Assembly: GCA_036274315.1 (NCBI GenBank)
Contig: DASUFY010000074.1
Location: 698 to 64,697 of the forward strand
Source of the DNA: Planctomycetota bacterium
GTDB lineage: Bacteria; Planctomycetota; UBA1135; UBA2386
Direction of reading: 5' to 3'
DNA length: 64,000 nt
Both the position numbers and the translations under genes were made by a program. Below the pieces are notes generated by a model, which worked only from the letters and a program-made list of their open reading frames with translations, ran no database searches and was not told the origin of the DNA. Below, piece by piece: positions 411-23,064 of the stretch; within the stretch, counting starts at the first letter, position 1, and each line of letters starts with the position of its first letter.

Positions 411-2597
411 TCAGCGGATGCGCAGGTGCAGGCCGTAGGTCGTCAGCGCGCCGCCCGCGTTGCTGCCCGGCGCGAAGTAGAGCCACTGCGCGAACAGGTC
501 GGCGGCCGGCACCGACTCCGGCAGCGGCACCTGGATCTCGGCCGAACCGCCCGCACCCGTGACCGCCGCGATCGCCTCGATCCAGCCGGCACCGAGGTCG
601 ACGAGCAGCGTGCAGCCCGTGAAGCCGAGCGAGTCGAGCGGCAGGGAGCCGCTGCCCAGCGACAGACCGACCAGCGCGAGCTGGTTGCCGGGCGCGTTCT
701 CGAGCCGCAACGACGCGAACTCGTTGCCGCGCAGCCAGCGGCCGCCGACGACCGCCGTGGCGCTGCCGCACGCGGGCGCGCCGTAGTAGCTGACGGCGTC
801 GTTGGGGTGCGTGACGACGCGACCCCAGACGTCGCCGTAGGTGGGCTCCAGCATGACGTAGACGGTCTGGAACCAGCCGTGCTCGGGGTCGTAGGCGACG
901 GCGGCGGGGCCCGGCGTCATCGGCGCGATCGGCCCCTGCACCGACTCGGTGCGCAGCACGCGCCCCGTCATGCCGAGCATGCGCGACCGGAGCTCGCCGG
1001 TAGTGGTGTCCGCCACCAGGCTGAGCCAGTGCGAACGTGTCGCCGGATCGACCGCGAGGTCCCTGGCCAGCAGCACGGGCTGGCTCATGGCGACGAGTTC
1101 CTGCGACGCCAGCGCCTGCGGCGCCGCGGCGAGCACGCCCCAGCTGAACCGGCGCGAACGCACTCGCTGCGCCATGCCGTCGGCGGGCAGGCCGCTCACC
1201 GTGTTCTGATCTCGTTCGCCGTAGGTCAACAGGAACTCGGCGCCGCGCCCGTCGACGAGCGGCGCGACCTCGTGCACCGGCAACGACGAACGGTCGCTGA
1301 GCAGCGACGCGCTCGACACGGTCCCTCCGGTCGTGACGCGCTTGGCGACGATGCGGTACTCGGGCACCAGCGTCGAGCCGCTCTGCCAGGCGACGACCCA
1401 TTGCAGGCCGCCGGCGTCGCGCGACACGCTCGGCGCCTTCGCCGTGGTGAACAGGCCGGCGCCGAACGAGAACTGCGTGGTCACGAAGTGCGTCTGCAGG
1501 TCGTAGATCTGGCCGGCCACCGTCGTGCTCCCGCCGAGCGTACGCTCGCAGACCACGAGCACGCCCGCGGCGACCCCCGAGAGGCTGCCGCCCAGACGCG
1601 GCTTGCGATCGGTTGCGCCAGCCGGCTGCCCGAGCTGCACGAGGTTGTTGTCGTAGCCGAGATCGGTGACGGCCCGCGTGTGCAGGAAGCACGCGTTCGC
1701 GCTCTGGCGCGTGAACGCGACGACCCAGTTCTGGCCGCCGTTGGCGGCGACCACGTCGATGTCGAGGATGTGGTCGTTCACCGCGCCGATGGCGTGCAGG
1801 AACTCGAACGACGACAAGTCCGCGGTGGCGGCGTCGACGATCAGGTCGGTCTCGGCGGTCGACCAGTCCAGCTTCGTGACGATGCACGCCGGGTACTGCA
1901 CGTTCGCCGAGGTGTAGGCGACGCGCACGTCGGTGTACGACCAGGCGAGCACGGTGGTCGGTGCGAGCAGCGGATCGACGGTCAGCGGGTAGCGCGCGTT
2001 CGCGAGCAGCGCCGCGGGCAGTTCGATCGCGATGCGTCCGCCGTCGCTGCTGGTCATGAGCGGCGTGCGCACGCCGTCGGCGTCGATCGCGACCGCGGCG
2101 CCGTAGCGGGCCCGCACCTGCCCCGACGGATCGCGCAGCACGAGCGGGCCGTGTGCGGCGCCGCGCGCCTCCGCGTGCAGCGCGCCGTCGACGGCGCCGA
2201 CGATGCGCAGGTCGCCGCGCACTTGCGGCGGGTTCGCGAACACGAAGCTCTGCTCGAGCCCTTCGGTGCGCACGTCGTAGCGTTCGGTCGCGAAGCCGAG
2301 GTCGATGTCGCAGCCGTAACCGTGCGCCTCGGGCCCGTGCGGCGCGGCGACCAGGCCCTGGCCGTCGGCCGCGAACAGGCCGAGCGTGCGCCAGCGGAAC
2401 GGCAGCGACGGTGTGTCGGCATCGACGTGCGGCGTGAACGTCACGCCGTCGGCGAAGCGCACCTTGTAGTCGTGGCCAGCGGCCCAGAGGCCTTGGGCAT
2501 CGCCGGCGAGCGGCGTGACCGGCACGTGGGGCGGCGGCAGCTGCAGCTGCGCGGCGAGAGGAACGGTGAACAACAGGGGCAGGAGCGAACGGTTCAT
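411..2597 (-). CDS. secreted protein (728 aa), full-length paralog of the 26715..29051 product, ending in the recurrent C-terminal module
   Basis: ORF 411..2921 was trimmed to ATG 2597, giving the signal peptide MNRSLLPLLFTVPLAAQ. Blocks GLWAAGHDYKVRF, ERYDVRTEGLEQSFVF and IAIELPAALLANARYPLTVDPL match GLWAATAAYKVSF, ETWDVRDDGLEQSFVV and VVELRVPAAWLATARFPVVVDPL of the paralog. The C-terminus is LPLDSLGFTGCTLLV...FAQWLYF...GLHLRIR. No named family recognised. Confidence 0.85.
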   Translation of the reverse strand: MNRSLLPLLFTVPLAAQLQLPPPHVPVTPLAGDAQGLWAAGHDYKVRFADGVTFTPHVDADTPSLPFRWRTLGLFAADGQGLVAAPHGPEAHGYGCDIDLGFATERYDVRTEGLEQSFVFANPPQVRGDLRIVGAVDGALHAEARGAAHGPLVLRDPSGQVRARYGAAVAIDADGVRTPLMTSSDGGRIAIELPAALLANARYPLTVDPLLAPTTVLAWSYTDVRVAYTSANVQYPACIVTKLDWSTAETDLIVDAATADLSSFEFLHAIGAVNDHILDIDVVAANGGQNWVVAFTRQSANACFLHTRAVTDLGYDNNLVQLGQPAGATDRKPRLGGSLSGVAAGVLVVCERTLGGSTTVAGQIYDLQTHFVTTQFSFGAGLFTTAKAPSVSRDAGGLQWVVAWQSGSTLVPEYRIVAKRVTTGGTVSSASLLSDRSSLPVHEVAPLVDGRGAEFLLTYGERDQNTVSGLPADGMAQRVRSRRFSWGVLAAAPQALASQELVAMSQPVLLARDLAVDPATRSHWLSLVADTTTGELRSRMLGMTGRVLRTESVQGPIAPMTPGPAAVAYDPEHGWFQTVYVMLEPTYGDVWGRVVTHPNDAVSYYGAPACGSATAVVGGRWLRGNEFASLRLENAPGNQLALVGLSLGSGSLPLDSLGFTGCTLLVDLGAGWIEAIAAVTGAGGSAEIQVPLPESVPAADLFAQWLYFAPGSNAGGALTTYGLHLRIR

Positions 2598-2668
2598 GCC
2601 GTTGCCAGGATCGTGGCCGCGCGTTCGGGACACCGCGGCGCCGGTTTTCCGGAGCGGCGGGCGGGAAC

Positions 2669-3133
2669 TCAACTCCGCCGCGTGACCTTCGCCAGCAACA
2701 ACGCGGCGATCGGCACCACTGCGACGCCCACCCACAACGCCACGAGCGCCCAGGCGAACCCCGCTCCCGGTGACGCGATCTGTGGACGCTCGGGCGACAG
2801 TACGCGCCCGCAGTGGCCGACCAGTGCCACGGCGAAGGCGCCGCTCGACAACGCGCCGGCGACCACGAGCGGGAAGCGCCAGCGACGCAGCGGCACACCG
2901 CGTCCGACCACCGCGAGGCACGCCACCAACACGGACGCCGCCGTTGCGAGCCGACTCCTCTCGATCTGCCCGTCGACGAGCATGACGACCGCCAACACGG
3001 CGACCACGACCGCCGCTGCGCTGACCACGGGCCGCCCCTGGCCGACCGCGGGTCGTCGGCCACCCGCGACGTCGCGTTCGGAGTTCACGGCTGCAGCGTA
3101 TCTCGAGTTGCCGTGAGGCGACGACCTGCGCAT
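2669..3133 (-). CDS. small hypothetical membrane protein (about 154 aa)
   Basis: ORF 2669..3175 was trimmed to ATG 3133, one nt after the upstream gene's stop (3135-3137). It has four hydrophobic stretches, e.g. VVVAVLAVVMLV, VLVACLAVVG and FAWALVALWVGVAVVPIAALLLA. No family recognised, and it could be a GC-frame artefact. Confidence 0.45.
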   Translation of the reverse strand: MRRSSPHGNSRYAAAVNSERDVAGGRRPAVGQGRPVVSAAAVVVAVLAVVMLVDGQIERSRLATAASVLVACLAVVGRGVPLRRWRFPLVVAGALSSGAFAVALVGHCGRVLSPERPQIASPGAGFAWALVALWVGVAVVPIAALLLAKVTRRS

Positions 3134-3134
3134 C

Positions 3135-3950: not shown

Positions 3951-4142
3951 GCGAGCGGAACACTACGCGAACGGCGCCGCAGGTGCGCGGCGAGCGGCCG
4001 TGGATCAACCTGCCCTGACCGATGCACCGGCCGTCGGTTGCAACCGCGGCCGTTTCGAAGGAGCCTTCCAGGGGACGCAAGAGGAAACCGTGCTCCCGCC
4101 TGCATCCGGTCGTCGCGATCGCGGGAAGAGAATGGCACCGCG

Positions 4143-7100
4143 ATGTCCCGCTCGGTCGAACACGAACTGCTGCTGCACACCGCCGCCCTGCGGCGCCTCG
4201 CCCGGCAGCTGGTCGGGGCCCAGCACGCCGACGACCTGGTGCAGGACACGGCCCTGCTCGCGCTGCAGACGACGCCGCGGCGGCCGGGGCCGCTCGGCGG
4301 CTGGCTCCGTGGCATCGTGCGCCACCTGGCCATGCACCACCGCCGCGGCGAACTTCGCCGGCGCGCGCGCGAACTGGCGCAGGCGCGGCCCGAAGAGGTG
4401 CCACCCGACCGTTCGGTCGCCGAACGGGACACGCTGCGGCGCCTGAGCGAGGCCGTGTTGTCGCTGCCGGAGCCGTATGGCCAGGTGCTGCTGCAGCGCT
4501 ACCTGCGCGAACGATCGCCGCAGCAGATCGCGCGCGCGAGCGGCGTGCCGCTGGCGACGGTCAAGAGCCAGCTGCAGCGCGGCCTGCAACTGCTGCGCGA
4601 ACGGCTGCAGCGAGACGGCGGCGACTGGCGCGCGGCGCTGGTGGCCGGGTTCGGCATCGAACACGCGCTGCCGATCGCGGCCGCGACGACCTCGGGAGTG
4701 TTGCTCATGTCGACGATGGCCAAGTGGGCCGCCGCGGCCGCGGTGCTGCTGGCGGCGTCGGGTGGACTGTGGTGGGCGCTGCGACCACCGATGCCGGCGG
4801 TGCGCGAGCCGGTCGACGCGATGTCCGTTGCCGCGGCCGGCACCGAAGCGGGAGCGGCGAGGCCGACCGCGGGCACGATCGGGCCGGTGCCGGCCGCGTT
4901 GCAGCGCGTTGCGGCGCCGCCCGCGCCGGCGCGAGGCAACGGCGCCGTGCTGCGCGGCCGTTGCGTCGATGACCATGGGCCGCTGGCCGGCGTCGCCGTC
5001 GAACTGCACGGCGCCCGCGCCGAGGGCACGGCCGACGAGTCGATCGACCTGCACGCGGCCACCGGCGCCGATGGCAGCTTCGCCTTCACGTTCGCTCCCG
5101 TGACCGGACAGTCCTTCCGCCTGCAGCTCCAGGCCGAGGAAATGGCGGACTCGGAGGCCACGTGGAACCACATCGCGGCCGATGCCACCATCGATCTCGG
5201 CGACGTGCTGCTGCTGCGTGCGGTCGCCGTGCGCGGCAGGGTCTTCGACGAACAGGGTGCGCCCGTGCCGGGCACGTCGGTGCACCTGCGCCGCGGCGAC
5301 CGCGACGACGGACCGGCGCGGCCGCGCCCCTACCAATCGGCGACGACCCGCGACGACGGCACGTTCGCGTGCGGGTTCGGCCTGGCGAGCGGAAGCTGGC
5401 AAGCCGACGTGCAGGCGCGCGAACTGGTGGCCGATGGCACTGTGCTGCTGCAGGCTCCGGCCGCCGATCTGCGACTCGTCGTGCGCACCGTGAGCGCATC
5501 GCACACGATCGCCGGCGTCGCCACGGACGAAACGGGGGCGCCGCTGGCCAGAGTGGCGATCCGAACCGTCCCGACCCGCGATGGGGCGCTGCACAGGACG
5601 CGGCGCGACGGCAGCTTCGAGCTGATCCGCGGGCGGGACGCCGGCGACGAGCCCGTCCGGCTCGCGTTCGAGAAGCCCGGCTACGAGACCGAAGAGACCG
5701 AAGCGGTCGCCTGGGGCAGCCGCGACCTGCGCGTCGTGCTGCACGCCAACGGCGGGCAGATCGTGCACGTCGTTCGCCTCGACGACGGCGCGCCGGTCGA
5801 GCACTGCACGCTGCACGCGCTGTGGCTCGCGCAACCGGGCGCCGCCCACAGCAACGAGAACCACGCGACCGTGCGCGGACCCTTTGCTCGAGGCCGCGCG
5901 GTCCTGCACCTGCGCAGCGGCGAGTACCGGCTGCTCGTCGAGCCCGACGACGCGCAGCTCGACTGCAGCGAGCTGTTGCCGTTCACCGTCGCGGGAGCCG
6001 ATGCCTCGACCGTCGTGCGGTTGCCGCCGCGGCTCGAACGGCGCGTCCGCGTGCAGTACCGGGACGGCTCACCGGTCGCCGGCGCACTCGTGCAGCGCTG
6101 CCTGCCACCGCTGCGGCCCGAACGCTTCCTCGATGTGTGCATGCCCCTGGACCCGTGGCTGCTCCAGGCCAACTGGGACAACGTGTCGCTGCGGCTCGAA
6201 GCCGGCATCACGGACGATCGAGGCGAGCTGCTGCTGCACGGCAGCTGCGGTCGCAGCGACACCCTGGTGCTGCCGGGCCCGGGACACGCGCCGTGCGGGG
6301 TGCCGTTCGGAGTCGAGGGCGACGGGCCGCAAGTGATCACCGTCGCCGCCGGCGCGCACCTGCGCGGCCGATGCACGCCGCCCGCCAGCGTGGCGGCGCT
6401 GCGCGCGCCGGCGCTGCGGCTGCGCGGCGATGGGGCGGCCAGATTCCCCGATCTGGATCGACCGCCGATCGCGATCGATGCCGAAGGTCGCTTCGACGTC
6501 GAGGGAGCACCGCCCGGCGCGTGGCGCATCGAACTGCGGCTGACGACGGTCAACGACGGTGGCGGCACGTTCACGTCCGGAGTGCCGGTCGGTCGCGTCG
6601 ATCTGCGCGAGGGCGAGACGGCGTTCGCGACGGTCGACCTGGCGCCGCTGCAGTGCGAGGAGGGCACGCTCGACGTCATGGTGCTGCACAACGGCGAGCC
6701 GTTGCGCAACGCCTTCGTGATGCCCATGGCGGTCGCGGCACCGGACAGCGTCAGCCTCGCCGGCCGCGCATCGTGGACGAGCCGCATCGACGCCGAGGGA
6801 CACATGCACAGCGAGCGCTGGCAGGGTCGCTACCGGTTGCTGTGGAGTCCGAAAGGCGTGCAAGGGCCAGACGCGCGCAGCCTGCGCGCGGACGAGATCC
6901 TGGAGGTCGTGCCGGGGCAGACGACGAAGGGCACGGTGCACTTCCGCAGCGGCACGCTGCGCGTGCACGTTCGCGATGCCGCGCAACGACCGCTGCCCGG
7001 CATCGCGGTCGAGCTCGTCGATGCGACCGGCGAGTGGTGCGCGACGCTGCCGCCAACCGACCGCGACGGCGCGGCCGAGCAGCTCGTCGAAGCCGGAACG

Positions 7101-7283
7101 TTCACGTGCCGCGCGCTGCCGGCGGAGCTGCTGGCGCAGAATCCGCAGCGCGCATCGCAACGCCCGCGGCAGCACGGCGAGGACCCACTGGCGCCGTCGC
7201 TGCTGCCCCTCGGCGAGGTGCTCGTGCAGCAGGGGGCCACGACGCAGGTGGTGTTGCAGCTGCCGCCGGCGAAGCCGCACTGA
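4143..7283 (+). CDS. ECF sigma-70 domain fused to a TM helix and a roughly 800-aa repeat ectodomain (1046 aa)
   Basis: ORF 3240..7283 was trimmed to ATG 4143 (MSRSVEHELLL). It has sigma region 2 (ADDLVQDTALLAL) and the region 4 HTH (SPQQIARASGVPLATVKSQLQRGLQLLRERL). A hydrophobic helix WAAAAAVLLAASGGLWWAL follows. After that come repeated units such as LRGRCVDDHGPLAGVAVEL...GADGSFAFTF and VRGRVFDEQGAPVPGTSVHL...RDDGTFACGF, a carboxypeptidase-regulatory-like beta-sandwich pattern. Confidence 0.85.
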   Translation: MSRSVEHELLLHTAALRRLARQLVGAQHADDLVQDTALLALQTTPRRPGPLGGWLRGIVRHLAMHHRRGELRRRARELAQARPEEVPPDRSVAERDTLRRLSEAVLSLPEPYGQVLLQRYLRERSPQQIARASGVPLATVKSQLQRGLQLLRERLQRDGGDWRAALVAGFGIEHALPIAAATTSGVLLMSTMAKWAAAAAVLLAASGGLWWALRPPMPAVREPVDAMSVAAAGTEAGAARPTAGTIGPVPAALQRVAAPPAPARGNGAVLRGRCVDDHGPLAGVAVELHGARAEGTADESIDLHAATGADGSFAFTFAPVTGQSFRLQLQAEEMADSEATWNHIAADATIDLGDVLLLRAVAVRGRVFDEQGAPVPGTSVHLRRGDRDDGPARPRPYQSATTRDDGTFACGFGLASGSWQADVQARELVADGTVLLQAPAADLRLVVRTVSASHTIAGVATDETGAPLARVAIRTVPTRDGALHRTRRDGSFELIRGRDAGDEPVRLAFEKPGYETEETEAVAWGSRDLRVVLHANGGQIVHVVRLDDGAPVEHCTLHALWLAQPGAAHSNENHATVRGPFARGRAVLHLRSGEYRLLVEPDDAQLDCSELLPFTVAGADASTVVRLPPRLERRVRVQYRDGSPVAGALVQRCLPPLRPERFLDVCMPLDPWLLQANWDNVSLRLEAGITDDRGELLLHGSCGRSDTLVLPGPGHAPCGVPFGVEGDGPQVITVAAGAHLRGRCTPPASVAALRAPALRLRGDGAARFPDLDRPPIAIDAEGRFDVEGAPPGAWRIELRLTTVNDGGGTFTSGVPVGRVDLREGETAFATVDLAPLQCEEGTLDVMVLHNGEPLRNAFVMPMAVAAPDSVSLAGRASWTSRIDAEGHMHSERWQGRYRLLWSPKGVQGPDARSLRADEILEVVPGQTTKGTVHFRSGTLRVHVRDAAQRPLPGIAVELVDATGEWCATLPPTDRDGAAEQLVEAGTFTCRALPAELLAQNPQRASQRPRQHGEDPLAPSLLPLGEVLVQQGATTQVVLQLPPAKPH

Positions 7284-7413
7284 CCGCGCGTCGTCGGGGC
7301 TCGGGGAGACATGTTCCCGCGCCTCGACGCAAAGCGGATCCGCGGTTGCAACGCCGACGACGCAGGTCGACACTGGGCTCGTTCGATGTCCTCCGTATCG
7401 AGGAGCCGGTGAC

Positions 7414-8163
7414 GTGAAGCTGAGCCGCTGCTGTCGGGGCGCCGTGCTCCTGTGTGGTGTCGTTGCATGGACCGCGTGCGCCGCGCCGCGCACGGCGTCT
7501 GCCCCGCCCGTTGCGCGGCGAGCTGCGCCTGCCGAACCGCCCCGATGGCAATTCGAGGTCGAACCGTACGTGTGGCTGCCCAGCACGGCGGGCACCGGTT
7601 CGACCGACACGACGCCACCGCTGCAGATCGACCTGGTCGGAGAACTCGACGCGGCCTTCCCTCTGGCGGTCGGTGCCAGGTCCCCCGACGGCAGGTTCGA
7701 GGTGCTCGCCGACGGCTTCTACGTGCGACTGAAGGACGACGAGGGCCCGCTGCGCACGACCACCCAGGCGGCGATGGTCGAGAGCGGAGTCGCCGTCGCG
7801 CTCGACGAGGCAAGGCACTTCAGTGCCTTGGTCGGCGTGCGGTACGTGGACGTCAGCTACGACGTGAGCCTGGGCGCGCTCGCCGGGAGCGCGGGCGCGG
7901 ATTGGGTCGATCCATGGATCGGGGCCCGCGCGGTCTTCGCGCTCGACGACACATGGTCCGTCCGCGCGCGCGGCGATGTCGGCGGCTTCGGCGTCGGGAC
8001 CGAGTTCAGCTGGCAGGCGATGGCCTTCGTGGGCGTCGCCGTCTCGAAGAGCGTCGCGTTCGACTTCGGCTACCGCGCCATCGGGATCGACTACCAGGGC
8101 AGCGGCCTGGACTACGAAGTCGTGTTCCACGGCCCGATCATCGGCCTCGTCGTGTCGTTCTGA
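7414..8163 (+). CDS. outer-membrane beta-barrel protein (249 aa), possibly a lipoprotein
   Basis: GTG 7414 is preceded by AGGAG at 7401-7405. The signal is KLSRCCRGAVLLCGVVAWTAC. Alternating beta-strand pattern is present (WSVRARGDVGGFGVGTEFSWQAMAFVGVAVSKSVAFDFGYRAIGIDY). The C-terminus GLVVSF ends in Phe. Confidence 0.7.
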   Translation: MKLSRCCRGAVLLCGVVAWTACAAPRTASAPPVARRAAPAEPPRWQFEVEPYVWLPSTAGTGSTDTTPPLQIDLVGELDAAFPLAVGARSPDGRFEVLADGFYVRLKDDEGPLRTTTQAAMVESGVAVALDEARHFSALVGVRYVDVSYDVSLGALAGSAGADWVDPWIGARAVFALDDTWSVRARGDVGGFGVGTEFSWQAMAFVGVAVSKSVAFDFGYRAIGIDYQGSGLDYEVVFHGPIIGLVVSF

Positions 8164-8281
8164 CGCCGCGCCCGCGGGGCCCGCGGCATGGTCGTGGCGC
8201 GAGGGGAACACACAGGTTCCGCGCCGTGGCGGCGGACCGGTGATCGCGCGGCGCTCCTCCGCGCGGCCCGCTGCTTGCACG

Positions 8282-8518
8282 GTGAATCTTGTCCCGAAGA
8301 CCCTGTCGAGTCCTCTCATCTCACGCTCCGTTCGCTCGAGCCTCGGCTCGCTGTCCGTTGTCTGCCTGCTCGCCGCCTCCGCCCGCGCGCAGTGCTCGCC
8401 ACAGTGGCTGCCCGGCGGCGGCACGCCGGGCACCGACCAGACCGTGCGCGCGTTGACGGTCTGGGATCCCGAGTTCAGCAGCACCAACGCGCTGACGCTG
8501 ACGGTCGGCACCTGGTGA
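8282..8518 (+). pseudogene. orphan N-terminal stub: signal peptide plus about 40 mature residues, ended by TGA
   Basis: GTG 8282 gives ...SLGSLSVVCLLAASARAQCSPQWLPGGGTPGTDQTVRALTVWDPEFSSTNALTLTVGTW*. This is protein-like and signal-bearing but only 78 codons long. Sequence after the stop is nonsense in this frame, and the next gene brings its own signal peptide. Confidence 0.3.
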
Positions 8519-8574
8519 GCGCGGGCGCGGCCCGAGGGTGGGGTCCGATCCCTACCCAGGCGACGAGCAACCGT

Positions 8575-9942
8575 ATGATCCGGCGATCGAGGTGCCCCAT
8601 GCGCGTGCTGCTCTGTGCGACTCTCTTGACCCACTCCATCGCGGCCCAGGTCGGCATCTGGGCTGCCGCGCCCGCGACCGTGATGCCGCCGCACCAAGAA
8701 CAGCAGCTCGTCTTCGATCCGGTGCGGCAGGTCATCAGCATGGTCGGCGGGCAGACGATCGGCAACAACTCGTCCCCGTTGGCCCTGTGGGACTACGTCG
8801 GCGGCACGTGGGTGGACCGCACGCCCTCCGGCGCGCCGGTCGTCGAAGGCGTGCGCGCGACGTTCCACGGTGGGCTCGGCAAGGTCGTCGCGCTCGTCGA
8901 ACGAAGCCAGAGCTTCCTCGAGCTGTACGCCTGGACCGGTTCGACCTGGAGCCTGCTGCCGGGCGCGCCGCCGCTGTTGCGCACGCGCTTCGGGTTCACG
9001 TACGACGCGATGCGCGACCGGCTCGTCGTGTTCGGCGGGATCCGCGCTGGTCAGGTCGTGTCCGAGACCTGGGAGTGGGACGGCGCTGTCTGGCAGCAGC
9101 TGTCGTCAGGCGGACCGCCCGGGAGGATCGATCCCGCGATGCAGTTCGACAGCGTGCGCCACGTGTGCGTCCTGTTCGGCGGCAATCGCGAACCGTCGAC
9201 GCTGAACTACGGCGACACCTGGGAATGGAACGGTTTCTACTGGCTCGAGCACTTCGGCATCCCGGGCCCGTCGCCGCGCACCCGGGCGATGTCGACGTTC
9301 GACCAGGACCGCGGCCGCATGGTCCTCTATGGCGGCGTCGCCGCGGCCAATCCGACAGACACGTGGGAGTGGGACGGCTCGGTATGGGCGCAGATGCAGA
9401 CGACCATGAATCCCGGTCACGTCATCGGCGCGATGGCGTACGACCCGACCACCGCCAGTGTGCTGCTGCTGTGGCAGAATGGGACCTGGCAATACGCGCC
9501 CGTGCCGCCGGCACCTTCCACGTTCACCGCGTTCGGCGACGGTTGCGGCGGCACGCTGGGTGTGCCGGTGCTGGCGGCCGCGGGCACGTCTCTGCCGATG
9601 CTTGGCACGACGTTCCATGCCGAACTGACCAACATTCCCGGGTCGGTGTTCAACGTGCCGATCGGCTTCGCCGCTTTCGACGCGACGACGTGGAACGGGG
9701 TGCCGCTGCCGATTCCGCTCGATCCGTTGGGCTTCACGGGCTGCGAGGTGTGGATCGCGCCCGCCGTCTCGCAGCCGCTACCGAACAACGCCGGCGTCGC
9801 CCCGTGGGACATCGCGATCCCGCTCCACTTCAACCTGGTCGGGCTCGATCTCTACCTCCAAGGTGCGGTGCTGGCACCGGGCGCCAACCCGGGCGGCTTC
9901 CTGTTCAGCAACGCGGGCCACGTCGTCGTCGGCACACCGTAG
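8575..9942 (+). CDS. secreted Kelch-repeat beta-propeller protein with the recurrent C-terminal module (455 aa)
   Basis: ATG 8575 (alternative 8599) gives the signal MRVLLCATLLTHSIAAQ. The propeller signature repeats: LALWDYVGGTW, ETWEWDGAVWQQL, DTWEWNGFYWLEH, DTWEWDGSVWAQM. The tail is FGDGCGG...IPLDPLGFTGCEVWI...YLQGAVLAPGANPGGFLFSNAGHVVVGTP. Confidence 0.85.
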   Translation: MIRRSRCPMRVLLCATLLTHSIAAQVGIWAAAPATVMPPHQEQQLVFDPVRQVISMVGGQTIGNNSSPLALWDYVGGTWVDRTPSGAPVVEGVRATFHGGLGKVVALVERSQSFLELYAWTGSTWSLLPGAPPLLRTRFGFTYDAMRDRLVVFGGIRAGQVVSETWEWDGAVWQQLSSGGPPGRIDPAMQFDSVRHVCVLFGGNREPSTLNYGDTWEWNGFYWLEHFGIPGPSPRTRAMSTFDQDRGRMVLYGGVAAANPTDTWEWDGSVWAQMQTTMNPGHVIGAMAYDPTTASVLLLWQNGTWQYAPVPPAPSTFTAFGDGCGGTLGVPVLAAAGTSLPMLGTTFHAELTNIPGSVFNVPIGFAAFDATTWNGVPLPIPLDPLGFTGCEVWIAPAVSQPLPNNAGVAPWDIAIPLHFNLVGLDLYLQGAVLAPGANPGGFLFSNAGHVVVGTP

Positions 9943-11251: not shown

Positions 11252-13819
11252 TCAGGGTTGGTCGCTGCGCGCGCAGCGGAAGCCGCAGGCGCAGCGCACG
11301 TGGTCGTGGATGCCATCGGTGCGCACGTTGAACGGCAGGCCCCGCTTGCGCGTGTCCCACCAGGTCCCTCCTTGGATGAACCGTTCGTTCGCCCAGTAGC
11401 GCAGACTGTCGCCGGTGCGGCTGACCCCGACGCTCTCGACCCACTCCTCGACGTTGCCGAGCATGTGGTGCACGCCTTCGGGCGTCGCGGCGTCGGGCAT
11501 CGAGCGCACGGGGGTCGCGAGCCGGACGAAGGCGCTGACCTGTGCCGGCCAGCCGAGGTCGGCCGCGTGCGGATCCTCGCGCTCGAGTGCGCCGCGAACC
11601 TCCGCGTCCTCGGTGGGGGCATACGGCAGCCAGCGATTCTGTTTGCCCCTCGCCGCCCACAGCCACTCGGCGCGCGTCGGCAAGCGCTTGCCGCGCCATT
11701 CCGCATAGGCGCGCGCATCCTCCCAGCTGACGAACACGGCCGGCAACTCCGCGACCTCGGGATGCTCGCTGGCGTGCGCGTCGAGCAGCGACCACGCCAC
11801 GTTCATCGGCCGTTGCGTGCGCTGCACGAACTCGCGGAACTCGCCGATGCTGACCTCGTACCGATCGAGCCAGAACGCGGCCACCGTCGCGACCCGGCCA
11901 CTGCCCGGTCCGGGCGGCGCCAGCGGTTCGGGCTGCAGCAGGTCGCCGCCCTGGATGCGGACCATGTCCGAGCCCGGTTCGGTCGGGCTCGCCGTGCCCG
12001 CGACCACGCACTGCACGACGTGGTTCCAGCGGCCGACGTCGAGCATCCGGGTCAGCTCTCGCAGGCCGCCTGGCAGGTGGAACTGCAAGCGCCAGTAGCC
12101 GGCTGGCAACGCGTGCTGCTCGACCGGCAACGCGCCGAGTTCCACGGTTGGACCGAGCTCGTCGGTGAAGGGGTCGATCCTGCGGGCGGTCGCCGTGCCG
12201 GCGAGCGCGGCGTCGTCGGGGCCGCGCGCGGTCAGCGACACGCGCGCATCGAAGGGCCGGTCCGGAAACGCAGTCTGCACTTCGCGGTCGGTCGGGAACA
12301 GGTGGCGCGCGCGCCCGAGCCGGTGGGTGCTCTCGAACAAGGTCTGGAAGCGCGCCGGATCGTCCGCCACTTCGTCGGTGGGGTTGGTGGCCGAGTGCAA
12401 CAGCGCAAGCCCGCTCTGCAACAGGTCGCGGCGCATTGAGTCGAAGCGCGCGGCCGCCCGATGGACCGGACTCGAGTCGAGCAAGTCGGGGTCTCGCATC
12501 GCCTGCTCGAGTTGCTCGAGCCCGGCCTGCAGTTCGCGATCCGTCAGCGGTTGCCAGTCGGCGATCGCCAGCAGTCGTTCGAGCGCGGCCACGGTCTGTC
12601 GCCGGCCTTGGGCTCGCGTCACCGAACTCGTGGCGAAGCTCGCGCCGGTGGCCGCGACCAGGACCAGCGCGGCGGCACTCAGCGGGCGCCAATGCCGCCG
12701 GCTCCAGTTCTGGAGTCGGCGCCAGACCGGAGTCGGTCGCGCGTGGATGGCGTCGTGCGCGAGGAAGCGCTCGAGGTCGTCGCGCAGCGCCGCCGCGGTC
12801 GGGTATCGATCGGCGACGTCCTTCGCCATCGCCACGCTGCAGATCGTCTCCAGATCGCGCGGTACGCGCTTGTTCCGCTTGCGCACCGGCGGTGCCACAC
12901 TCTGCTGGATCTGGCTGAGGACCTCGTGGTCCGTCAGGCCCTCGAACGGCCGCGTCAGCGTCAGCAGCTCGTAGAGCACCACACCGAGCGAGTACACGTC
13001 CGTGCGATGATCGACGCGATCCTTGCCGCGGAGGCGGGCCTGCTCGGGGCTCATGTAGTAGAGCGAGCCCGGCGCCTCACCGGTGCGCGTGAGCGTGCCG
13101 TAGCGCGCGGTCCGGGCGATGCCGAAGTCGGCCACCTTGACGTGACAGTGGCGGTCGAGCAGCAGGTTCTGCGGCTTGACGTCGCGGTGCACGATGCCGG
13201 CCCGATGGGCGCAGTCGAGTGCGTCGGCCGCATCGGCGCAGATGCGGGCGACGGCCGTGACGTAGCCCGAGTTCGCGAAGGCCGGCAGCAGCGGCGCGGG
13301 ATCGTTCGGCAAACGATCTCTCTGCAGGTCGATCTCGCGCCCCATGTCGTGGCCGTCCACGTACTCCATCGCGAACCAGTGCGTGGCGCCCTCGCTGCCG
13401 TCGGTGAAGACCTGCACGATGTGCGGATGGTTCAACTGCGCGGCGGCGCGCGGCTCGCGGTGGAAGCGCTCGATCTGGCGCTCGGAAGTCGCCAGCGACT
13501 CCGTCAGCACCTTGAGCGCGACCTTGCGGTCGAGCGACCGCTGCGTCGCCAGGTACACGGGCAGGTTGCCGCGCCCCAGTTCGCGTTCGATCACGAAGTC
13601 CTGCAGGCCCGGCGGCTCGGCCTTGGCCGCCGCGGCATGCAGGTCCACGGGCCTCAGGAAGTCGTCGCTGGGATTGGCCGCGAGCAGCGCCATCGCCTCG
13701 GCCCGCATGGCCGCGTCCTCGCCGCAAGCGTCCGCGACGAACGCCGCGCGTTGCTCGACCGGCAGGCCAAGGGCCTGGCCGATGATCTCCTGCATGCGTT
13801 GGAAGCGTGGATCGCTCAC
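11252..13819 (-). CDS. Ser/Thr protein kinase, single TM, with a C-terminal FGE-sulfatase (SUMF1-like) ectodomain
   Basis: GTG 13819 overlaps the sigma gene's TGA (GTGA); the alternative start is ATG 13795. Kinase motifs are ALKVL, HRDVKPQNLLL, DFGIAR and SPEQ. The TM segment is LSAAALVLVAATGASFA. The C-terminus carries FGE-type blocks FWLDRYEVSIGEFREFV, VSWEDARAYAEWRGKRLPTRAEW, HMLGNVEEWV and CGFRCA. Confidence 0.9.
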   Translation of the reverse strand: MSDPRFQRMQEIIGQALGLPVEQRAAFVADACGEDAAMRAEAMALLAANPSDDFLRPVDLHAAAAKAEPPGLQDFVIERELGRGNLPVYLATQRSLDRKVALKVLTESLATSERQIERFHREPRAAAQLNHPHIVQVFTDGSEGATHWFAMEYVDGHDMGREIDLQRDRLPNDPAPLLPAFANSGYVTAVARICADAADALDCAHRAGIVHRDVKPQNLLLDRHCHVKVADFGIARTARYGTLTRTGEAPGSLYYMSPEQARLRGKDRVDHRTDVYSLGVVLYELLTLTRPFEGLTDHEVLSQIQQSVAPPVRKRNKRVPRDLETICSVAMAKDVADRYPTAAALRDDLERFLAHDAIHARPTPVWRRLQNWSRRHWRPLSAAALVLVAATGASFATSSVTRAQGRRQTVAALERLLAIADWQPLTDRELQAGLEQLEQAMRDPDLLDSSPVHRAAARFDSMRRDLLQSGLALLHSATNPTDEVADDPARFQTLFESTHRLGRARHLFPTDREVQTAFPDRPFDARVSLTARGPDDAALAGTATARRIDPFTDELGPTVELGALPVEQHALPAGYWRLQFHLPGGLRELTRMLDVGRWNHVVQCVVAGTASPTEPGSDMVRIQGGDLLQPEPLAPPGPGSGRVATVAAFWLDRYEVSIGEFREFVQRTQRPMNVAWSLLDAHASEHPEVAELPAVFVSWEDARAYAEWRGKRLPTRAEWLWAARGKQNRWLPYAPTEDAEVRGALEREDPHAADLGWPAQVSAFVRLATPVRSMPDAATPEGVHHMLGNVEEWVESVGVSRTGDSLRYWANERFIQGGTWWDTRKRGLPFNVRTDGIHDHVRCACGFRCARSDQP

Positions 13820-14412
13820 GACAGTTCGCGCTTGAGCCACGCGCGCGCCGCGCGCAGTCGGCGTTCGGTGGTGCTCACGCTGAGTTCGAGGTTGTGCGCG
13901 CACTGCGTGACCGTCAGGCCGAGGAAGAAGTGCAGATCGACGATCTGCGCGCCTTCGTGGTCCAGCGCGTAGAGCCGCTCGAGCGACTCGTGCAGCGCGA
14001 CGCAGTCGCTGCCGTCGGTGTGACGTTGCACGGCGTCGGCGACCTCGTCGAGATAGAGCCGCCGGCCCGGCGGCCGGCGTTTCCCGGAGTGCTTGCGCCG
14101 GATGTGATCGACGAGGATCTGGCGCATGGCGCGGGCGGCGACGCGCAGGAAGTGCTCGTGGTTGTTCCAGACCTTGCCCTCGGCGCCGCACAGCTTGATC
14201 CACGCCTCGTGCACGAGCGCCGTCGGCTGCATCGTCGCGGGCCGTCCGCGGGCAACGAGACAGCCGGCGATTGTCCGCAGCTCCAGGTAGATGTCGTGGA
14301 ACAACTCCGCCTGACGGTCGGGGTCGCCAGCTCGCGGGTCGAAGGCACCCGGATCAGGGTCGTGCGTCGGCATCGGCTGGCGTCTCCGGGCGGCCAAGCA
14401 GGCAACGGTCAT
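13816..14412 (-). CDS. ECF sigma factor of the kinase-associated type (Sigma70_ECF / TIGR02999-like; ECF43-like)
   Basis: LFHDIYLELRTIAGCLVARGRPATMQPTALVHEAWIKL...WNNHEHFLRVAARAMRQILVDHIRRKHSGKR matches my memory of this family. Region 4 is IVDLHFFLGLTVTQCAHNLELSVSTTERRLRAARAWL. The start may be ATG 14412 or ATG 14373 (GGAG lies 10 nt upstream of the latter). Confidence 0.9.
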   Translation of the reverse strand: MTVACLAARRRQPMPTHDPDPGAFDPRAGDPDRQAELFHDIYLELRTIAGCLVARGRPATMQPTALVHEAWIKLCGAEGKVWNNHEHFLRVAARAMRQILVDHIRRKHSGKRRPPGRRLYLDEVADAVQRHTDGSDCVALHESLERLYALDHEGAQIVDLHFFLGLTVTQCAHNLELSVSTTERRLRAARAWLKRELS

Positions 14413-14460
14413 TGTAGTCAGCGAGTCTCCTCGACGCAGTTTCGGATGGTGGAAATGACC

Positions 14461-20100: not shown

Positions 20101-23064
20101 TCAAAGCTCGACCACGATCGGCTCGGCCAGTTCGCCGGCGAACACCACGCGCCGCCGCCGCCGCGCCTCACCGCGTTCGAGTTCTTCGCGCGTGCCGACC
20201 CGCAGTTCCCACGTGCCGATCGGGACGTTGCTCAGGGCGAAGTAGCCGGGGCTGCTCGCCGCCAGCACCGTCTCCCAGACGTCGTCGTGATCCGGCGCGC
20301 TGATCATCAGCAGTCGACCGCCGTCGTCGGCCAGCGCGACGCAGGCCGCGAAGTGCTCGGAGTGCTCGCCGAACCGGATGCGGCCGCGACACGTCGCTGT
20401 GTTCGACAGCGTGAGCGGCAGTTCGACCTCGTCGCCGGCGACCGTCACCGGTCCTGTCGTGACGCGCGAGAGCGGCTCGCCGTCTGGCCCACGTGCGCTG
20501 ACGGAGATCCAGGCGGGGCCGCGGTCGAGCAGCAGTTCGACGACGCCGCGCGCATCGGCGTCGGTGCGCGGCGATCGGCGGTGCACCTCGAGGCGCCAGA
20601 TCCCTTCGGGGCGCCGGATGCGCTGGGGCACGGGCAGCGTGCACAGCGCGTGCAGTGCCGCGTGCGACCAGGCGGTGGTCGGGCCGAGCGCGGGCCACGC
20701 CGGGTCGACGCCGTCGTCGGCTTCGAGGTGGCCGACGCGAACTTCGACCTCGCCGATCGCCGTCGCCGAAGCACTCGCGAGGAGTCGCAACCGGGTGCGC
20801 TTCGCCGGCTCGAGCACCACTTCGATCGGCTCGCCGGGGCGAACGTCGTCCCGGACCGCCGTGGTGAAGCCGTCGCCGGCGACTTCGAGCCTCTGCACCG
20901 CGCCGGCGATGCTCGGCACACGGAACGCGCCGTGCTCGTCGGTCCGCCACGCTCCGCTGTGCTCGATCCAGTCGCCTTCCCCCGGGAACCTGAGCAGGCG
21001 ACGGACCTGCGCCGCGACGGCACGCCCGCTCGCATCGTGCACGCGACCGACGAGGCTCTGTGCCGGCGCGAGCCGGAGCTCGACGAACATCGGCTCCGCA
21101 CCATCGATCTGCAACCGCCGCACCGCGCGGGGTCCCTCGCTGTCTCCCGACTTGCGGGCGGTGATCAGCAGGAGCTGGTCCCTCCAGGCTCCGGACAGCG
21201 GCAGCTCGAATCGGCCAGACGCATCCGTGGTCGCCATGCGGATCGACTCGAGGTACCCGCCGTGCACCATCTCGAACCAGAGGTCGGCGCCGCTCGCCGA
21301 CTGCCCGTCGGGGTCGACGACGGTCACGTGCACTGAGAGGTCGGTGCCGAGCACGAGGCGCAAACGCCGTCGCTCGCCGGCGCCGACCGAGATCGGTCGC
21401 CCGGTCGGGGATCCCGGCGCCACGCCCTGCCCGTCCTGTTCGTGCACGAACATGCTCTCACCGGCCAGCAGCACGAGGTCCAACCCGGCGGGAACGCACA
21501 GCGTCGCGGCGCCCTGCGCAGTCGGCGCCCTCGCGAGCAGCGGCGTGCGCGGCCTGCAGTCCGTGGCCGCGAACAGACCGGTCTCGGTGCTGCCGACCGC
21601 CACGCCGACTCCGTCGACGTGGAGCGCGGGTCGGCCCGAGGCATCGACGATCTCGACGGTCAGGGTGCCGGCCGGTGCCAGCAGGATGCGCGCCGGCTGC
21701 CAGCCGCCGCGCGGCAGCGCACGAAGCTCGGACGTCCCGACCTGGATGAAGCCCTCGCGCTCGGCCGCCAGCCACGACCCGGCGTCGGCCGTCGCGAACA
21801 CGAAGTGTCCGTCCTGGTCGGCGGAGGTCTCGATCGCGACGCGCTCTCCGTCCTGCCGATGGGTGAGCGTGACACGGGCGCCAGCGACCGCGGTGCCCGA
21901 GGGTTCGGTCACGATGCCCTCGAGTCGACCCTGTGGATAGCGGGTCAGCACGAGCTGTTCGGGTGGTCGGTCCACGCCCTTCGCGGCGGACCAACGCGCG
22001 GCGCGCAGGACCTCGGTGCCGTCCGCCTTGGCCGCGACGAGCACGGCGTCGTCAGGCAGTTCGATCTGGAAGTGCCCCTGCGCGTCCGTCGTGACCTCGA
22101 CCTCGACCGTGCTCGCGGTGGGCACGGTGAGCACTTCCGGGGTCTTCGCGTCTGCTGCGCGCGCGGCGCCGTGCGAACTCGCGGACCCGCCCGGTTGCCG
22201 CAGCCGGCAGCGCACGGTGACGTTCGCCGCTGGCTGGCCGTGGCCCGGTGCCGCGCCGATCGCGGCGTCTTCGACGAGGCCGTGCACGAGCGTCGCCGGC
22301 GATGCGGTTGCGAGCGGATCGCGCTGCACGCGCGGGTCGACCGTCGTTCGTGAGAGCGCGGTGCCGCGGCTGGCGGTGGTCGACTGCGCCGGGGCCGGGT
22401 CGTTCGCGTGCCAGGACAGCGACGTGACCGCGACGGTGGTGATGAGCACGAGGCCGGCCGCGTTGCGCAGCAGGCGCAACACCGGCGCGCGTGTCGTCAC
22501 CGCACCAGCGCCCGGCGGCATGCCGAGCGTGCCCGGGTCGAGTCCGCCGATCGCGCAGAGCGCGGGCAGCCAGTTCTGCCGGCCTGCCGGATGGTCAGCG
22601 TCGAGGCGTTCGCGGAGTCGGGCCAGCGCGCGGGCCAGGCGCGTCTTGACCGTGCCGAGCGGGACGTCGAGTCGCGCCGCGATCTGCTGCGGCTTCAGGT
22701 TCTCGTAGTAACGCAGGAAGATGGCGTCGCGACCGGGGGCGTCGAGCGCCTCGACGTGCTGCAGCAGGCGGCGCGCGACGTCGAGTTTGACGGCGACGTC
22801 GGCGGTGTCGGCGGAGATGGGGGCACGCGCGGCGGTGCGCTCGCGGGCGCGCCGGCGCGTGCCGGTGCGCATGTGGCGCGCGGCGCGCTTGCGCAGCACG
22901 GCAGCCAACCACGGGACGAGGCCGTGGGGGCGCGGGGCGCCGGTCAGCGCGGCGACGCAGGTCTCCTGGACGAGGTCGTCGGCGGTGTGCTCGTCGGTGG
23001 CGAGGCGGCGGGCCAGGGCGCGCAGGAACGGGGCGTGGGCGGTGAACTCGGCTTCGAACGTCAT
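20101..23064 (-). CDS. ECF sigma-70 domain fused to a TM helix and a roughly 750-aa repeat ectodomain (987 aa); same architecture as 4143..7283
   Basis: ORF 20101..23445 was trimmed to ATG 23064 (MTFEAEFTAHAPFL). Region 2 is ADDLVQETCVAAL. Region 4 is KPQQIAARLDVPLGTVKTRLARALARLRERL. The TM segment is AAGLVLITTVAVTSLSW. Repeats follow, such as LEGIVTEPSGTAVAGARVTL...DQDGHFVF, VHVTVVDPDGQSASGADLWF...DASGRFELPL and LVGRVHDASGRAVAAQV...DEHGAFRVPS. Confidence 0.85.
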   Translation of the reverse strand: MTFEAEFTAHAPFLRALARRLATDEHTADDLVQETCVAALTGAPRPHGLVPWLAAVLRKRAARHMRTGTRRRARERTAARAPISADTADVAVKLDVARRLLQHVEALDAPGRDAIFLRYYENLKPQQIAARLDVPLGTVKTRLARALARLRERLDADHPAGRQNWLPALCAIGGLDPGTLGMPPGAGAVTTRAPVLRLLRNAAGLVLITTVAVTSLSWHANDPAPAQSTTASRGTALSRTTVDPRVQRDPLATASPATLVHGLVEDAAIGAAPGHGQPAANVTVRCRLRQPGGSASSHGAARAADAKTPEVLTVPTASTVEVEVTTDAQGHFQIELPDDAVLVAAKADGTEVLRAARWSAAKGVDRPPEQLVLTRYPQGRLEGIVTEPSGTAVAGARVTLTHRQDGERVAIETSADQDGHFVFATADAGSWLAAEREGFIQVGTSELRALPRGGWQPARILLAPAGTLTVEIVDASGRPALHVDGVGVAVGSTETGLFAATDCRPRTPLLARAPTAQGAATLCVPAGLDLVLLAGESMFVHEQDGQGVAPGSPTGRPISVGAGERRRLRLVLGTDLSVHVTVVDPDGQSASGADLWFEMVHGGYLESIRMATTDASGRFELPLSGAWRDQLLLITARKSGDSEGPRAVRRLQIDGAEPMFVELRLAPAQSLVGRVHDASGRAVAAQVRRLLRFPGEGDWIEHSGAWRTDEHGAFRVPSIAGAVQRLEVAGDGFTTAVRDDVRPGEPIEVVLEPAKRTRLRLLASASATAIGEVEVRVGHLEADDGVDPAWPALGPTTAWSHAALHALCTLPVPQRIRRPEGIWRLEVHRRSPRTDADARGVVELLLDRGPAWISVSARGPDGEPLSRVTTGPVTVAGDEVELPLTLSNTATCRGRIRFGEHSEHFAACVALADDGGRLLMISAPDHDDVWETVLAASSPGYFALSNVPIGTWELRVGTREELERGEARRRRRVVFAGELAEPIVVEL

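What the first reader, a model, noticed from the sequence alone, without database searches (positions are those of the whole stretch)
4143..7283. ECF sigma factor, TM helix and a roughly 800-aa repeat ectodomain in a single polypeptide
One ORF contains a complete ECF sigma, with regions 2 and 4 readable. A linker follows, then one hydrophobic helix (WAAAAAVLLAASGGLWWAL). After that come many tandem units of the G-x-V-x-D-x-x-G-x-P...DG-x-F type, a carboxypeptidase-regulatory-like beta-sandwich pattern.

A membrane-tethered sigma factor cannot reach RNA polymerase on the nucleoid in the usual way. The architecture therefore implies either regulated proteolytic release or a self-contained sigma/anti-sigma in cis. 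ECF groups with C-terminal extensions, including TM-containing ones in Planctomycetes, have been catalogued but remain poorly understood mechanistically. A second copy of the architecture lies at 20101..23064.
Basis: partly seen in the sequence, partly recalled or inferred. Interest (0 to 1): 0.6.

Follow-up and report, generated by a model that had tools for sequence, protein, structure and literature searches.

The report
Membrane-tethered ECF sigma factor family
This gene really does join a transcription sigma factor, through one membrane helix, to eight beta-sandwich domains outside the cell; it is one of at least 44 such genes in this genome, with its own promoter motif and a probable internal start that would also make a sigma-less copy.

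Summary
ORF 4143-7283 (1046 aa) is one intact gene. It encodes ECF sigma regions 2 and 4, a 28-residue linker with one short conserved helix, one TM helix (187-213), a disordered Ala/Pro tether and eight beta-sandwich domains. The second copy at 20101-23064 is real.

- **Expansion.** This 62%-complete soil MAG carries 44 complete and 3 truncated paralogues. Their sigma cores form one clade. Relatives carry 10 to at least 91 copies, and cultured Engelhardtia mirabilis at least 23.
- **Promoter.** TGCATCC-N13/14-CGGGRW lies 12-31 nt before the start codon. It recurs in other genomes, which suggests autoregulation.
- **Internal start.** A conserved GGAG plus ATG sits just before the TM helix. It is ATG in 35 of 44 paralogues, 25 of them with GGAG (background 1.7%). 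Stand-alone sigma-less genes begin at the same point.

No anti-sigma domain is present, so "sigma/anti-sigma in cis" is not supported. The most likely mechanism is inferred, not shown: the tether alone silences the sigma, and proteolysis releases it, as in Pseudomonas putida IutY. I rate this a new variant of a known kind, of moderate-to-good interest. Earlier scan agents reported the same family in other genomes.

The parts
4101..4127 (+). ECF-type promoter motif: TGCATCC (4101-4107), a 14-nt spacer, then CGGGAA (4122-4127). It ends 16 nt before the ATG.
   Evidence: The same bipartite motif lies 12-31 nt upstream of six close paralogues. Six of the nine genome-wide TGCATCC-type hits are at such gene starts. 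It is also present upstream of homologues in ten loci from other genomes and upstream of P0003. Function as a promoter is inferred.
4143..7283 (+). Whole gene: membrane-tethered ECF sigma factor, 1046 aa (P0001).
4149..4613 (+). Cytoplasmic ECF sigma core: sigma-2 (residues 3-80) and sigma-4 (residues 88-157).
   Evidence: Pfam r2 and r4_2 and TIGR02937 are above cut-off. pLDDT is about 90. The nearest solved relatives are mycobacterial SigE and SigL.
4626..4667 (+). Conserved post-sigma-4 helix (residues 162-175, motif DWRxxLxxAFGL; W162 and R163 nearly invariant).
   Evidence: Alignments; model. Its role is unknown.
4694..4709 (+). Predicted internal translation start: GGGAG (4694-4698), an 8-nt spacer, then ATG for Met189 (4707-4709).
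   Evidence: The column is ATG in 35 of 44 paralogues, and 25 of those have GGAG at -15..-5, against 1.7% at random in-frame positions. GGA is only 6.3% of Gly codons (p about 1e-21). In other genomes 44 of 84 have ATG and 23 of those have GGAG. Use as a start is inferred.
4701..4781 (+). Single transmembrane helix (residues 187-213).
   Evidence: Hydropathy; helix. It is present at residues 180-230 in all paralogues.
4782..4931 (+). Disordered Ala/Pro-rich periplasmic tether (residues 214-263).
   Evidence: pLDDT is below 50. It is a candidate site-1 cleavage region (inferred).
4944..7280 (+). Ectodomain of eight beta-sandwich (CarboxypepD_reg / prealbumin-like) domains. It opens with the conserved RGRCVD motif (Cys274).
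   Evidence: Pfam; model; Foldseek matches to tandem pilin/adhesin and macroglobulin-type domains.
20101..23064 (-). Second paralogue (P0002, 987 aa) with the same architecture. It lacks the internal ATG (CTG at that column).

Best explanation
The gene encodes a one-component transmembrane signalling protein. A complete ECF sigma factor sits in the cytoplasm. A short conserved linker and one membrane helix tie it to a rod or array of eight beta-sandwich domains in the periplasm or at the cell surface. There is no anti-sigma domain.

The most likely mechanism has four steps:
1. The short tether to the membrane keeps the sigma from working.
2. An event at the ectodomain exposes the disordered Ala/Pro tether to a periplasmic protease.
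3. A site-2 (M50) protease then cuts in the membrane helix and frees a sigma fragment of about 20 kDa.
4. The freed sigma transcribes from the family's own TGCATCC-N13/14-CGGGRW promoter, including its own gene.

The same mRNA probably also yields, from an internal GGAG-ATG just before the membrane helix, a sigma-less copy of the membrane helix plus ectodomain.

Shown here: the architecture, the lack of an anti-sigma domain, the expansion, the promoter motif and the internal start signal. Inferred: topology, proteolytic release, autoregulation and use of the internal start.
For: **Architecture and integrity.**

**Conservation of the fusion.** About 60 full-length homologues and 513 clusters at E<=1e-30.

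**No anti-sigma domain.** Sigma-4 ends near residue 157 and the TM helix starts at 187. Only one short helix lies between them, and no anti-sigma Pfam or NCBIfam family matched.

**Expansion.** There are 44 complete and 3 truncated paralogues in a 62%-complete genome. All 46 fused sigma cores in the tree fall in one supported clade (97/88) among the 106 ECF cores included. The cassette is in 28 of 31 genomes searched (own plus 30 relatives), with up to at least 91 copies.

**Promoter.** Six of nine genome-wide hits lie 12-31 nt upstream of family start codons. The motif is conserved in other genomes.

**Precedent.** IutY of P. putida has a sigma of about 168 aa followed directly by a TM helix and a periplasmic domain. 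It is inactive until Prc and RseP cut it, and truncations that keep the TM helix still need RseP (PMC5411451).

**Proteases.** M50 and S41 protease genes are present in the genome.

**Internal start.**. About 25 of the 150 best relatives are sigma-less proteins of about 830-906 aa that align from query residue about 190-205 onward. Two were checked as true separate genes.
Against: - No cleavage, released fragment or transcription has been observed.
- The genome shows only two short M50 genes and one fragment, with no clear PDZ-bearing RseP. It is only 62% complete.
- No site-1 protease or partner gene is conserved next to the family.
- No target genes other than the family's own promoters were found.
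- After intramembrane cleavage an Ala-rich C-terminus could act as a degradation tag for the sigma itself.
- The GGAG-ATG could in principle reflect a protein constraint plus a pause signal rather than initiation. The second copy (P0002) lacks it.
Confidence: 0.55

Rival explanations
1. The sigma works while still tethered. RNA polymerase holoenzyme forms at the membrane, as DNA binding does for ToxR or CadC. The ectodomain would modulate activity by conformation or clustering, without proteolysis.
For: There is no anti-sigma domain. The sigma-4 C-terminus is followed by a flexible linker of about 28 residues. The promoter sits directly in front of the gene, so coupled transcription, translation and membrane insertion would keep the locus at the membrane. 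Relatives in the Saltatorellus clade have deeply invaginated membranes (bioRxiv 10.1101/817700).
Against: In the one tested analogue, IutY, forms that keep the TM helix are inactive without RseP (PMC5411451). The linker here is short and partly helical. The disordered periplasmic tether and the Gly-containing, Ala-rich membrane helix suit a proteolytic route.
Confidence: 0.2
2. Sigma and inhibitor lie in cis. The conserved post-sigma-4 helix (DWRxxLxxAFGL) folds back on sigma-2 or sigma-4 as a minimal anti-sigma element, and a signal relieves it through the membrane helix.
For: W162 and R163 are nearly invariant across the family. The helix is modelled with moderate confidence (pLDDT about 83 for residues 161-170).
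Against: One helix of about 14 residues is far smaller than known anti-sigma domains. No anti-sigma family matched. Contacts could not be inspected because no coordinates or error map were available.
Confidence: 0.1
3. The sigma part is a relic. The protein is mainly an envelope or surface beta-sandwich protein, and the N-terminal domain is just a cytoplasmic anchor.
For: Sigma-less paralogues with the same ectodomain are common and stand alone. An internal start would make the same sigma-less product.
Against: Sigma regions 2 and 4 are the best-conserved part of the family, with many invariant residues. A matching promoter motif is conserved in front of the genes in several genomes. The -35 words differ between paralogue subgroups.
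Confidence: 0.05
4. The long ORF is an assembly or frameshift artefact that joins two genes.
For: None found.
Against: The coding signal is continuous. A second assembler gives an identical contig. Hundreds of full-length homologues exist, and there are 44 paralogues with the same layout.
Confidence: 0.01

Closest known systems
IutY of Pseudomonas putida (sigma/anti-sigma hybrid of a cell-surface signalling system, ECF243; PMC5411451, PMC8999054)
   Same: One polypeptide with a cytoplasmic ECF sigma, a single TM helix almost directly after sigma-4, and a periplasmic sensing domain. IutY is silent until the periplasmic part is trimmed (Prc) and the helix is cut (RseP). This is the only tested example of this logic.
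   Different: - IutY is 374 aa with a FecR-type periplasmic domain.
- It works with a TonB-dependent receptor encoded next door and is described as unique in its organism.
- Here the ectodomain is about 780 aa of beta-sandwich repeats and no receptor partner is conserved.
- The sigma core belongs to a different clade.
- There are dozens of paralogues per genome, and an internal start signal is present.
ECF52/ECF53/ECF48 of Actinobacteria, for example SCO4117 of Streptomyces coelicolor (PMC8999054)
   Same: ECF sigma with a long C-terminal extension that crosses the membrane and carries extracytoplasmic domains. Activation by proteolysis is proposed.
   Different: Those extensions contain a zinc-finger (ZAS-like) anti-sigma element before the membrane helices. 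None is present here. The phylum and the ectodomains also differ.
ECF57 (formerly ECF01-Gob), the planctomycetal ECFs with large C-terminal extensions (PMC7826278 gives 5.3 copies per planctomycetal genome; the WD40 content is from PMC8567305, PMC11032199 and my memory of Jogler 2012)
   Same: Planctomycetota; many paralogues per genome; long C-terminal extensions; no separate anti-sigma factor.
   Different: The described ECF57 extensions are WD40 or TPR type. Here they are CarboxypepD_reg beta-sandwiches behind a TM helix. Group assignment could not be tested because the ECF group profiles are not available here.
Pro-sigma-K / SpoIVFB of Bacillus subtilis (from established knowledge)
   Same: The sigma factor itself is the substrate of a site-2-type membrane metalloprotease and is held inactive at the membrane until cut.
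   Different: That is an N-terminal pro-sequence on a group-3 sigma, with no ectodomain and a developmental checkpoint rather than an envelope sensor.

Membership tests
ECF (group 4) sigma-70 family | [quoted passage not shown] | tested here: met
   Pfam r2 and r4_2 are above gathering scores, TIGR02937 scores 52.9 against 42.9, and there is no r3 or r1 hit. The two helical domains are modelled at pLDDT about 90.
ECF (group 4) sigma-70 family | Own bipartite -35/-10 promoter upstream of its gene (autoregulation). | tested here: inconclusive
   A conserved TGCATCC-N13/14-CGGGRW motif lies 12-31 nt before the ATG in six paralogues and in ten loci of other genomes. Recognition by this sigma was not tested.
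IutY-type cell-surface-signalling sigma/anti-sigma hybrid (ECF243) | FecR-type periplasmic domain. | tested here: not met
   There is no FecR hit. The ectodomain is CarboxypepD_reg / Big_1-like.
IutY-type cell-surface-signalling sigma/anti-sigma hybrid (ECF243) | Adjacent TonB-dependent transducer gene. | tested here: not met
   The neighbours are a pseudouridine synthase and a 249-aa protein with no family match. No gene family is significantly linked to the 44 paralogues.
IutY-type cell-surface-signalling sigma/anti-sigma hybrid (ECF243) | Release by site-1 protease plus RseP. | not testable with these tools
   M50 and S41 protease genes exist in the genome, but cleavage needs an experiment.
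ECF52/53-type fused sigma/anti-sigma (Actinobacteria) | Zinc-finger (ZAS) anti-sigma element between sigma-4 and the TM helix. | tested here: not met
   There is no zf-HC2 or RskA-type hit. Only about 28 residues lie between sigma-4 and the TM helix.
ECF57 (ECF01-Gob) | Sigma core falls in the ECF57 profile group. | not testable with these tools
   The ECF Hub group profiles and the supplementary group descriptions are not held.
ECF57 (ECF01-Gob) | WD40 or TPR-type C-terminal extension. | tested here: not met
   No WD40 or TPR hit. The model shows beta-sandwich repeats only.
Class I anti-sigma domain in cis | Three- to four-helix cytoplasmic bundle that binds sigma-2 and sigma-4. | tested here: not met
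   There is a single short helix, 162-175.

The most novel reading that the evidence does not exclude
One gene would make a self-contained signalling pair. The first product is a low-abundance sigma-tethered sensor, translated from a nearly leaderless mRNA. The second is a sigma-less twin, translated from a strong internal Shine-Dalgarno/ATG, that shares the same membrane helix and ectodomain. The twin, like the stand-alone sigma-less paralogues, would pair with or shield the sensor's ectodomain and so set the threshold for proteolytic release. The membrane tether alone, with no anti-sigma domain, would keep the sigma silent. Radiated to 40-90 copies per genome, this cassette would be the main envelope-sensing system of the Saltatorellus-clade Planctomycetota.
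Probability: 0.3. Interest if true: 0.75.

Novelty: new variant of a known kind. Interest (0 to 1): 0.58.

Why it matters
ECF sigma factors are the third major route of bacterial signal transduction, and nearly all mechanistic knowledge concerns sigma/anti-sigma pairs. This family has no anti-sigma element at all. It makes up roughly 40% of the ECF sigma genes of this genome and is carried in dozens of copies by a whole order.

If tethering alone silences a sigma and proteolysis frees it, the IutY case, described as unique in its organism, becomes a widespread design. The internal start would add a new layer: a regulator and its decoy made from one mRNA.

The family is testable. Cultured Engelhardtia mirabilis Pla133 has at least 23 copies, and the predicted promoter gives a ready reporter.

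Tried and rejected
- **Conserved partner genes.** I clustered all good ORFs within 5 kb of the 44 paralogues. The only recurrent neighbours were a secreted "module" family (next to 15 of 44) and Ser/Thr kinases (next to 8 of 44). The module family has about 100-130 copies in the genome, so about 10 adjacencies are expected by chance. I dropped it as a partner.
- **Regulon.** A genome-wide scan for the promoter motif found only three sites away from family genes. All three are inside coding frames with no gene start downstream.
- **Thioester or enzyme function.** The Foldseek top hits (TIE protein, alpha-2-macroglobulin, complement) rest on generic tandem beta-sandwiches with TM-scores of 0.05-0.12. 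The model has no helical thioester domain. I rejected this reading.
- **Positive-inside rule.** Lys/Arg counts in the 15-residue flanks of the TM helix do not discriminate (0.9 against 0.9). Topology therefore rests on the need for the sigma to be cytoplasmic and on the absence of other TM helices.
- **Locus search with the 23-sequence alignment.** It failed for lack of a conserved stretch. An 8-sequence alignment worked.
- **Papers not held.** Wiegand 2020, Jogler 2012, Pinto 2019 and the supplementary group descriptions of Casas-Pastor 2021 were unavailable, so the ECF group could not be assigned.
- **RNA evidence.** Only soil DNA runs hold the sequence.
Full report
**1. The observation.** The ATG at 4143 opens a 1046-codon frame that ends at 7283. 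The window is 71% G+C. Third-position G+C is 0.83-0.91 in every 300-nt block of the frame, so the coding signal runs unbroken from the sigma part into the ectodomain. A contig built by another assembler from soil-metagenome run X1 covers 4000-7400 with no differences and no gaps.

Pfam finds Sigma70_r2 (residues 14-70), Sigma70_r4_2 (99-151) and four CarboxypepD_reg stretches, all above their curated scores. NCBIfam's ECF superfamily model TIGR02937 is also above its cut-off. The one strong hydrophobic segment is at 186-204. The copy at 20101-23064 on the minus strand (987 aa) has the same domain order. It is 37% identical to the first over residues 1-220 and otherwise alike only at profile level.

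**2. Anatomy.** An AlphaFold2 model built on 50 full-length homologues has mean pLDDT 84 and pTM 0.64. It shows:
- sigma-2 at residues 3-80;
- sigma-4 at residues 88-157;
- a short helix at 162-175;
- a long helix at 187-213, the membrane span;
- a disordered Ala/Pro-rich stretch at 214-263;
- eight beta-sandwich domains of 80-105 residues from 268 to 1039.

Foldseek against the PDB returns tandem prealbumin/CnaB-type pilin and adhesin domains and macroglobulin-type domains. TM-scores are low, as expected for a string of generic sandwiches, and no enzyme or thioester domain appears.

Across the family the best-conserved parts are the sigma regions, a post-sigma-4 motif DWRxxLxxAFGL (W162, R163), G185 and M189 just before the membrane span, and RGRCVD (Cys274) at the start of the first sandwich. 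Only about 28 residues separate sigma-4 from the membrane helix, and nothing resembling an anti-sigma domain was detected.

**3. Not two copies but a large family.** The window lies in a soil MAG of 5.97 Mb in 339 contigs. It is 70.7% G+C and estimated 62% complete. A profile of sigma plus linker plus membrane helix finds 116 ECF-like frames in the genome. Of these, 44 complete and 3 contig-truncated genes have the whole cassette followed by 500-980 further residues. All have a hydrophobic peak at residues 180-230. Thirty-nine match the ectodomain profile, and five of six tested among the rest still carry CarboxypepD_reg domains.

In a maximum-likelihood tree of 106 sigma cores, with linker and helix removed, all 46 fused genes in the tree fall in one supported clade (97/88). 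Six "plain" rows sit with them; at least one of these (C241_8235) is itself fused and several others appear cut off at contig ends. This points to one ancestral fusion followed by radiation, at least in this genome.

The cassette occurs in 28 of 31 genomes searched (own plus 30 relatives of the order). Named relatives are almost all Planctomycetota MAGs, with a few labelled as Myxococcota-type (Kofleriaceae, Polyangiaceae, Myxococcales, Deltaproteobacteria). Cultured Engelhardtia mirabilis Pla133 has at least 23 copies. That clade was already noted as unusually rich in ECFs (bioRxiv 10.1101/817700). The 50%-identity representative library holds 513 clusters at E<=1e-30.

**4. A promoter of its own.** Upstream of the gene lies TGCATCC (4101-4107), then 14 nt, then CGGGAA (4122-4127), ending 16 nt before the ATG. 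Nine sites in the whole genome fit the TGCATCC form of the pattern TGCATC[CG]-N11-15-[GC]GGG[ATG][AT]. Six of them sit 12-31 nt upstream of the start codons of the six closest paralogues. The other three are inside coding frames.

The same bipartite motif, with a 13-nt spacer, precedes homologues in ten loci from other genomes. It also precedes the closest homologue, P0003. More distant paralogues carry other -35-like words in the same position (TGAACC, GGAGTCC, TGCAAC). This is the pattern expected of autoregulated ECF sigma factors that have diverged in promoter specificity. Recognition was not tested. If the -10-like element is real, the leader is only about 7-10 nt and has no Shine-Dalgarno sequence (inference).

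**5. An internal start signal.** An earlier scan note (e1-1109925, another genome) proposed a nested start, and I tested it here. The nearly invariant Met189 column is ATG in 35 of 44 paralogues. In 25 of those 35, GGAG lies 5-15 nt upstream. The rate is 1.7% at random in-frame positions, and 7 of the 416 other internal ATGs have it.

The GGAG is made by a GGA glycine codon followed by a G-starting codon. GGA is only 6.3% of glycine codons in these genes, so the preference acts on the nucleotides and not on the protein (binomial p about 1e-21). In loci of other genomes the column is ATG in 44 of 84 cases, 23 of them with GGAG. In this gene the site is GGGAG at 4694-4698, then 8 nt, then ATG at 4707. 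The second copy has CTG instead and lacks the signal.

Independently, about 25 of the 150 best relatives in the representative library are proteins of about 830-906 aa. They align from query residue about 190-205 onward, so they begin at the membrane helix. Two were checked and are genuine separate genes. One lies divergently next to the closest fused homologue. A similar pair exists on contig C51 of this genome. The membrane helix plus ectodomain is therefore an autonomous unit. The fused genes very probably make it as a second product. Translation from this site remains to be shown.

**6. How it most likely works.** The only tested protein of this design is IutY of Pseudomonas putida. It has a sigma of about 168 residues, then a membrane helix, then a periplasmic domain. 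It is silent until Prc trims the periplasmic part to about 50 residues and RseP cuts the helix. Truncated forms that keep the helix still need RseP (PMC5411451; PMC8999054).

By analogy I propose the same route here. The short tether alone would keep the sigma from productive use. An event at the ectodomain would expose the disordered tether (residues 214-263) to a periplasmic protease. A site-2 protease would then release a sigma of about 20 kDa, which would act on the family promoter, including its own gene. The bulky ectodomain would otherwise exclude a PDZ-gated site-2 protease. The Ala-rich helix contains glycines, as site-2 substrates often do.

M50 and S41 protease genes are present, but no clear RseP-type gene was seen in this incomplete genome. 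None of these steps has been observed. I give the whole explanation 0.55. The rivals are activity while tethered (0.2), a minimal cis-inhibitory helix (0.1), a relic sigma (0.05) and an artefact (0.01). The sigma-less twin could shield or pair with the sensor's ectodomain; this is speculation and is entered as the novel case.

**7. Context and what led nowhere.** No gene family is linked to the paralogues beyond chance. The gene's own neighbours are a pseudouridine synthase upstream on the other strand and a 249-aa protein without family matches downstream. The second copy is divergent from a Ser/Thr kinase. No extra regulon members were found.

**8. Comparison and novelty.** Long, diverse C-terminal extensions on planctomycetal ECFs, and TM-containing extensions in ECF52/53 and IutY, are documented (PMC7826278, PMC7671368, PMC8999054). 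So the kind is known.

I could find no description of this particular family: an ECF core, a conserved post-sigma-4 motif, one helix and eight CarboxypepD_reg-type sandwiches. I also found no description of its promoter, its expansion to dozens of copies per genome, or the internal start. Key papers and supplements were not held, so a prior mention cannot be excluded. Public records call these proteins only "sigma-70 family RNA polymerase sigma factor".

Earlier agents of this scan reached similar conclusions in other genomes. Those notes are not independent evidence, but the promoter and nested-start leads were re-tested here on 44 paralogues.

**Verdict.** This is a real and conserved gene and a new variant of a known kind. 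The mechanism is inferred. Interest is 0.58.

Noticed in passing
window 411-3134 (-), 17598-19832 (+), 26712-29051 (+), 8164-9942 (+): Large secreted proteins that share a C-terminal module of about 90 aa (GC.L..D ... ending in a beta-strand-like tail). BLAST finds about 100-130 ORFs of this family in the 6-Mb genome, and Pfam finds nothing in one of them. This is another very large lineage-specific expansion.
   Followed up: partly
window 7420-8163 (+): A 249-aa protein directly downstream of the sigma fusion. It has a signal-peptide-like start and a Gly/aromatic-rich C-terminal half ending in Phe, like a small outer-membrane beta-barrel. It has no Pfam match. Whether it is co-transcribed with the sigma gene is unknown.
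   Followed up: partly
window 4962-4964 (Cys274 of P0001): A single cysteine in the RGRCVD motif at the start of the first ectodomain sandwich is conserved in at least 90% of 50 homologues. No second conserved cysteine exists. It might form an intermolecular disulfide, for example with the sigma-less twin. This is unexplained.
   Followed up: no
genome contigs C151, C139, C241, C121, C79, C328, C134, C146, C230 (outside the window): A subclade of the fused sigmas (14 rows in the tree) has an extra hydrophobic insert of about 15 residues (LPAGLAxA..LL..GRGLAAxR) between sigma-4 and the conserved juxtamembrane motif. It could be a second membrane-associated segment.
   Followed up: no
L087 1603-4812 (-) and 5001-7679 (+); genome contig C51 1440-4229 (-) and 5979-9026 (+): A fused sigma gene and a sigma-less paralogue of the same ectodomain lie head to head in two different genomes. 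This suggests a functional pairing of fused and unfused forms.
   Followed up: partly
window 23241-26051 (+) and 11252-14541 (-): Ser/Thr kinases with long C-terminal sensor regions sit next to ECF sigma genes. One is divergent from the second fusion gene. Kinases are next to 8 of the 44 fused paralogues genome-wide, and the significance of this was not assessed.
   Followed up: partly
window 22469-22471 (Leu198 codon CTG of P0002): The second copy has CTG where most paralogues have the internal ATG, and no GGAG upstream. It is a natural "no-twin" variant that could serve as a comparison in experiments.
   Followed up: yes
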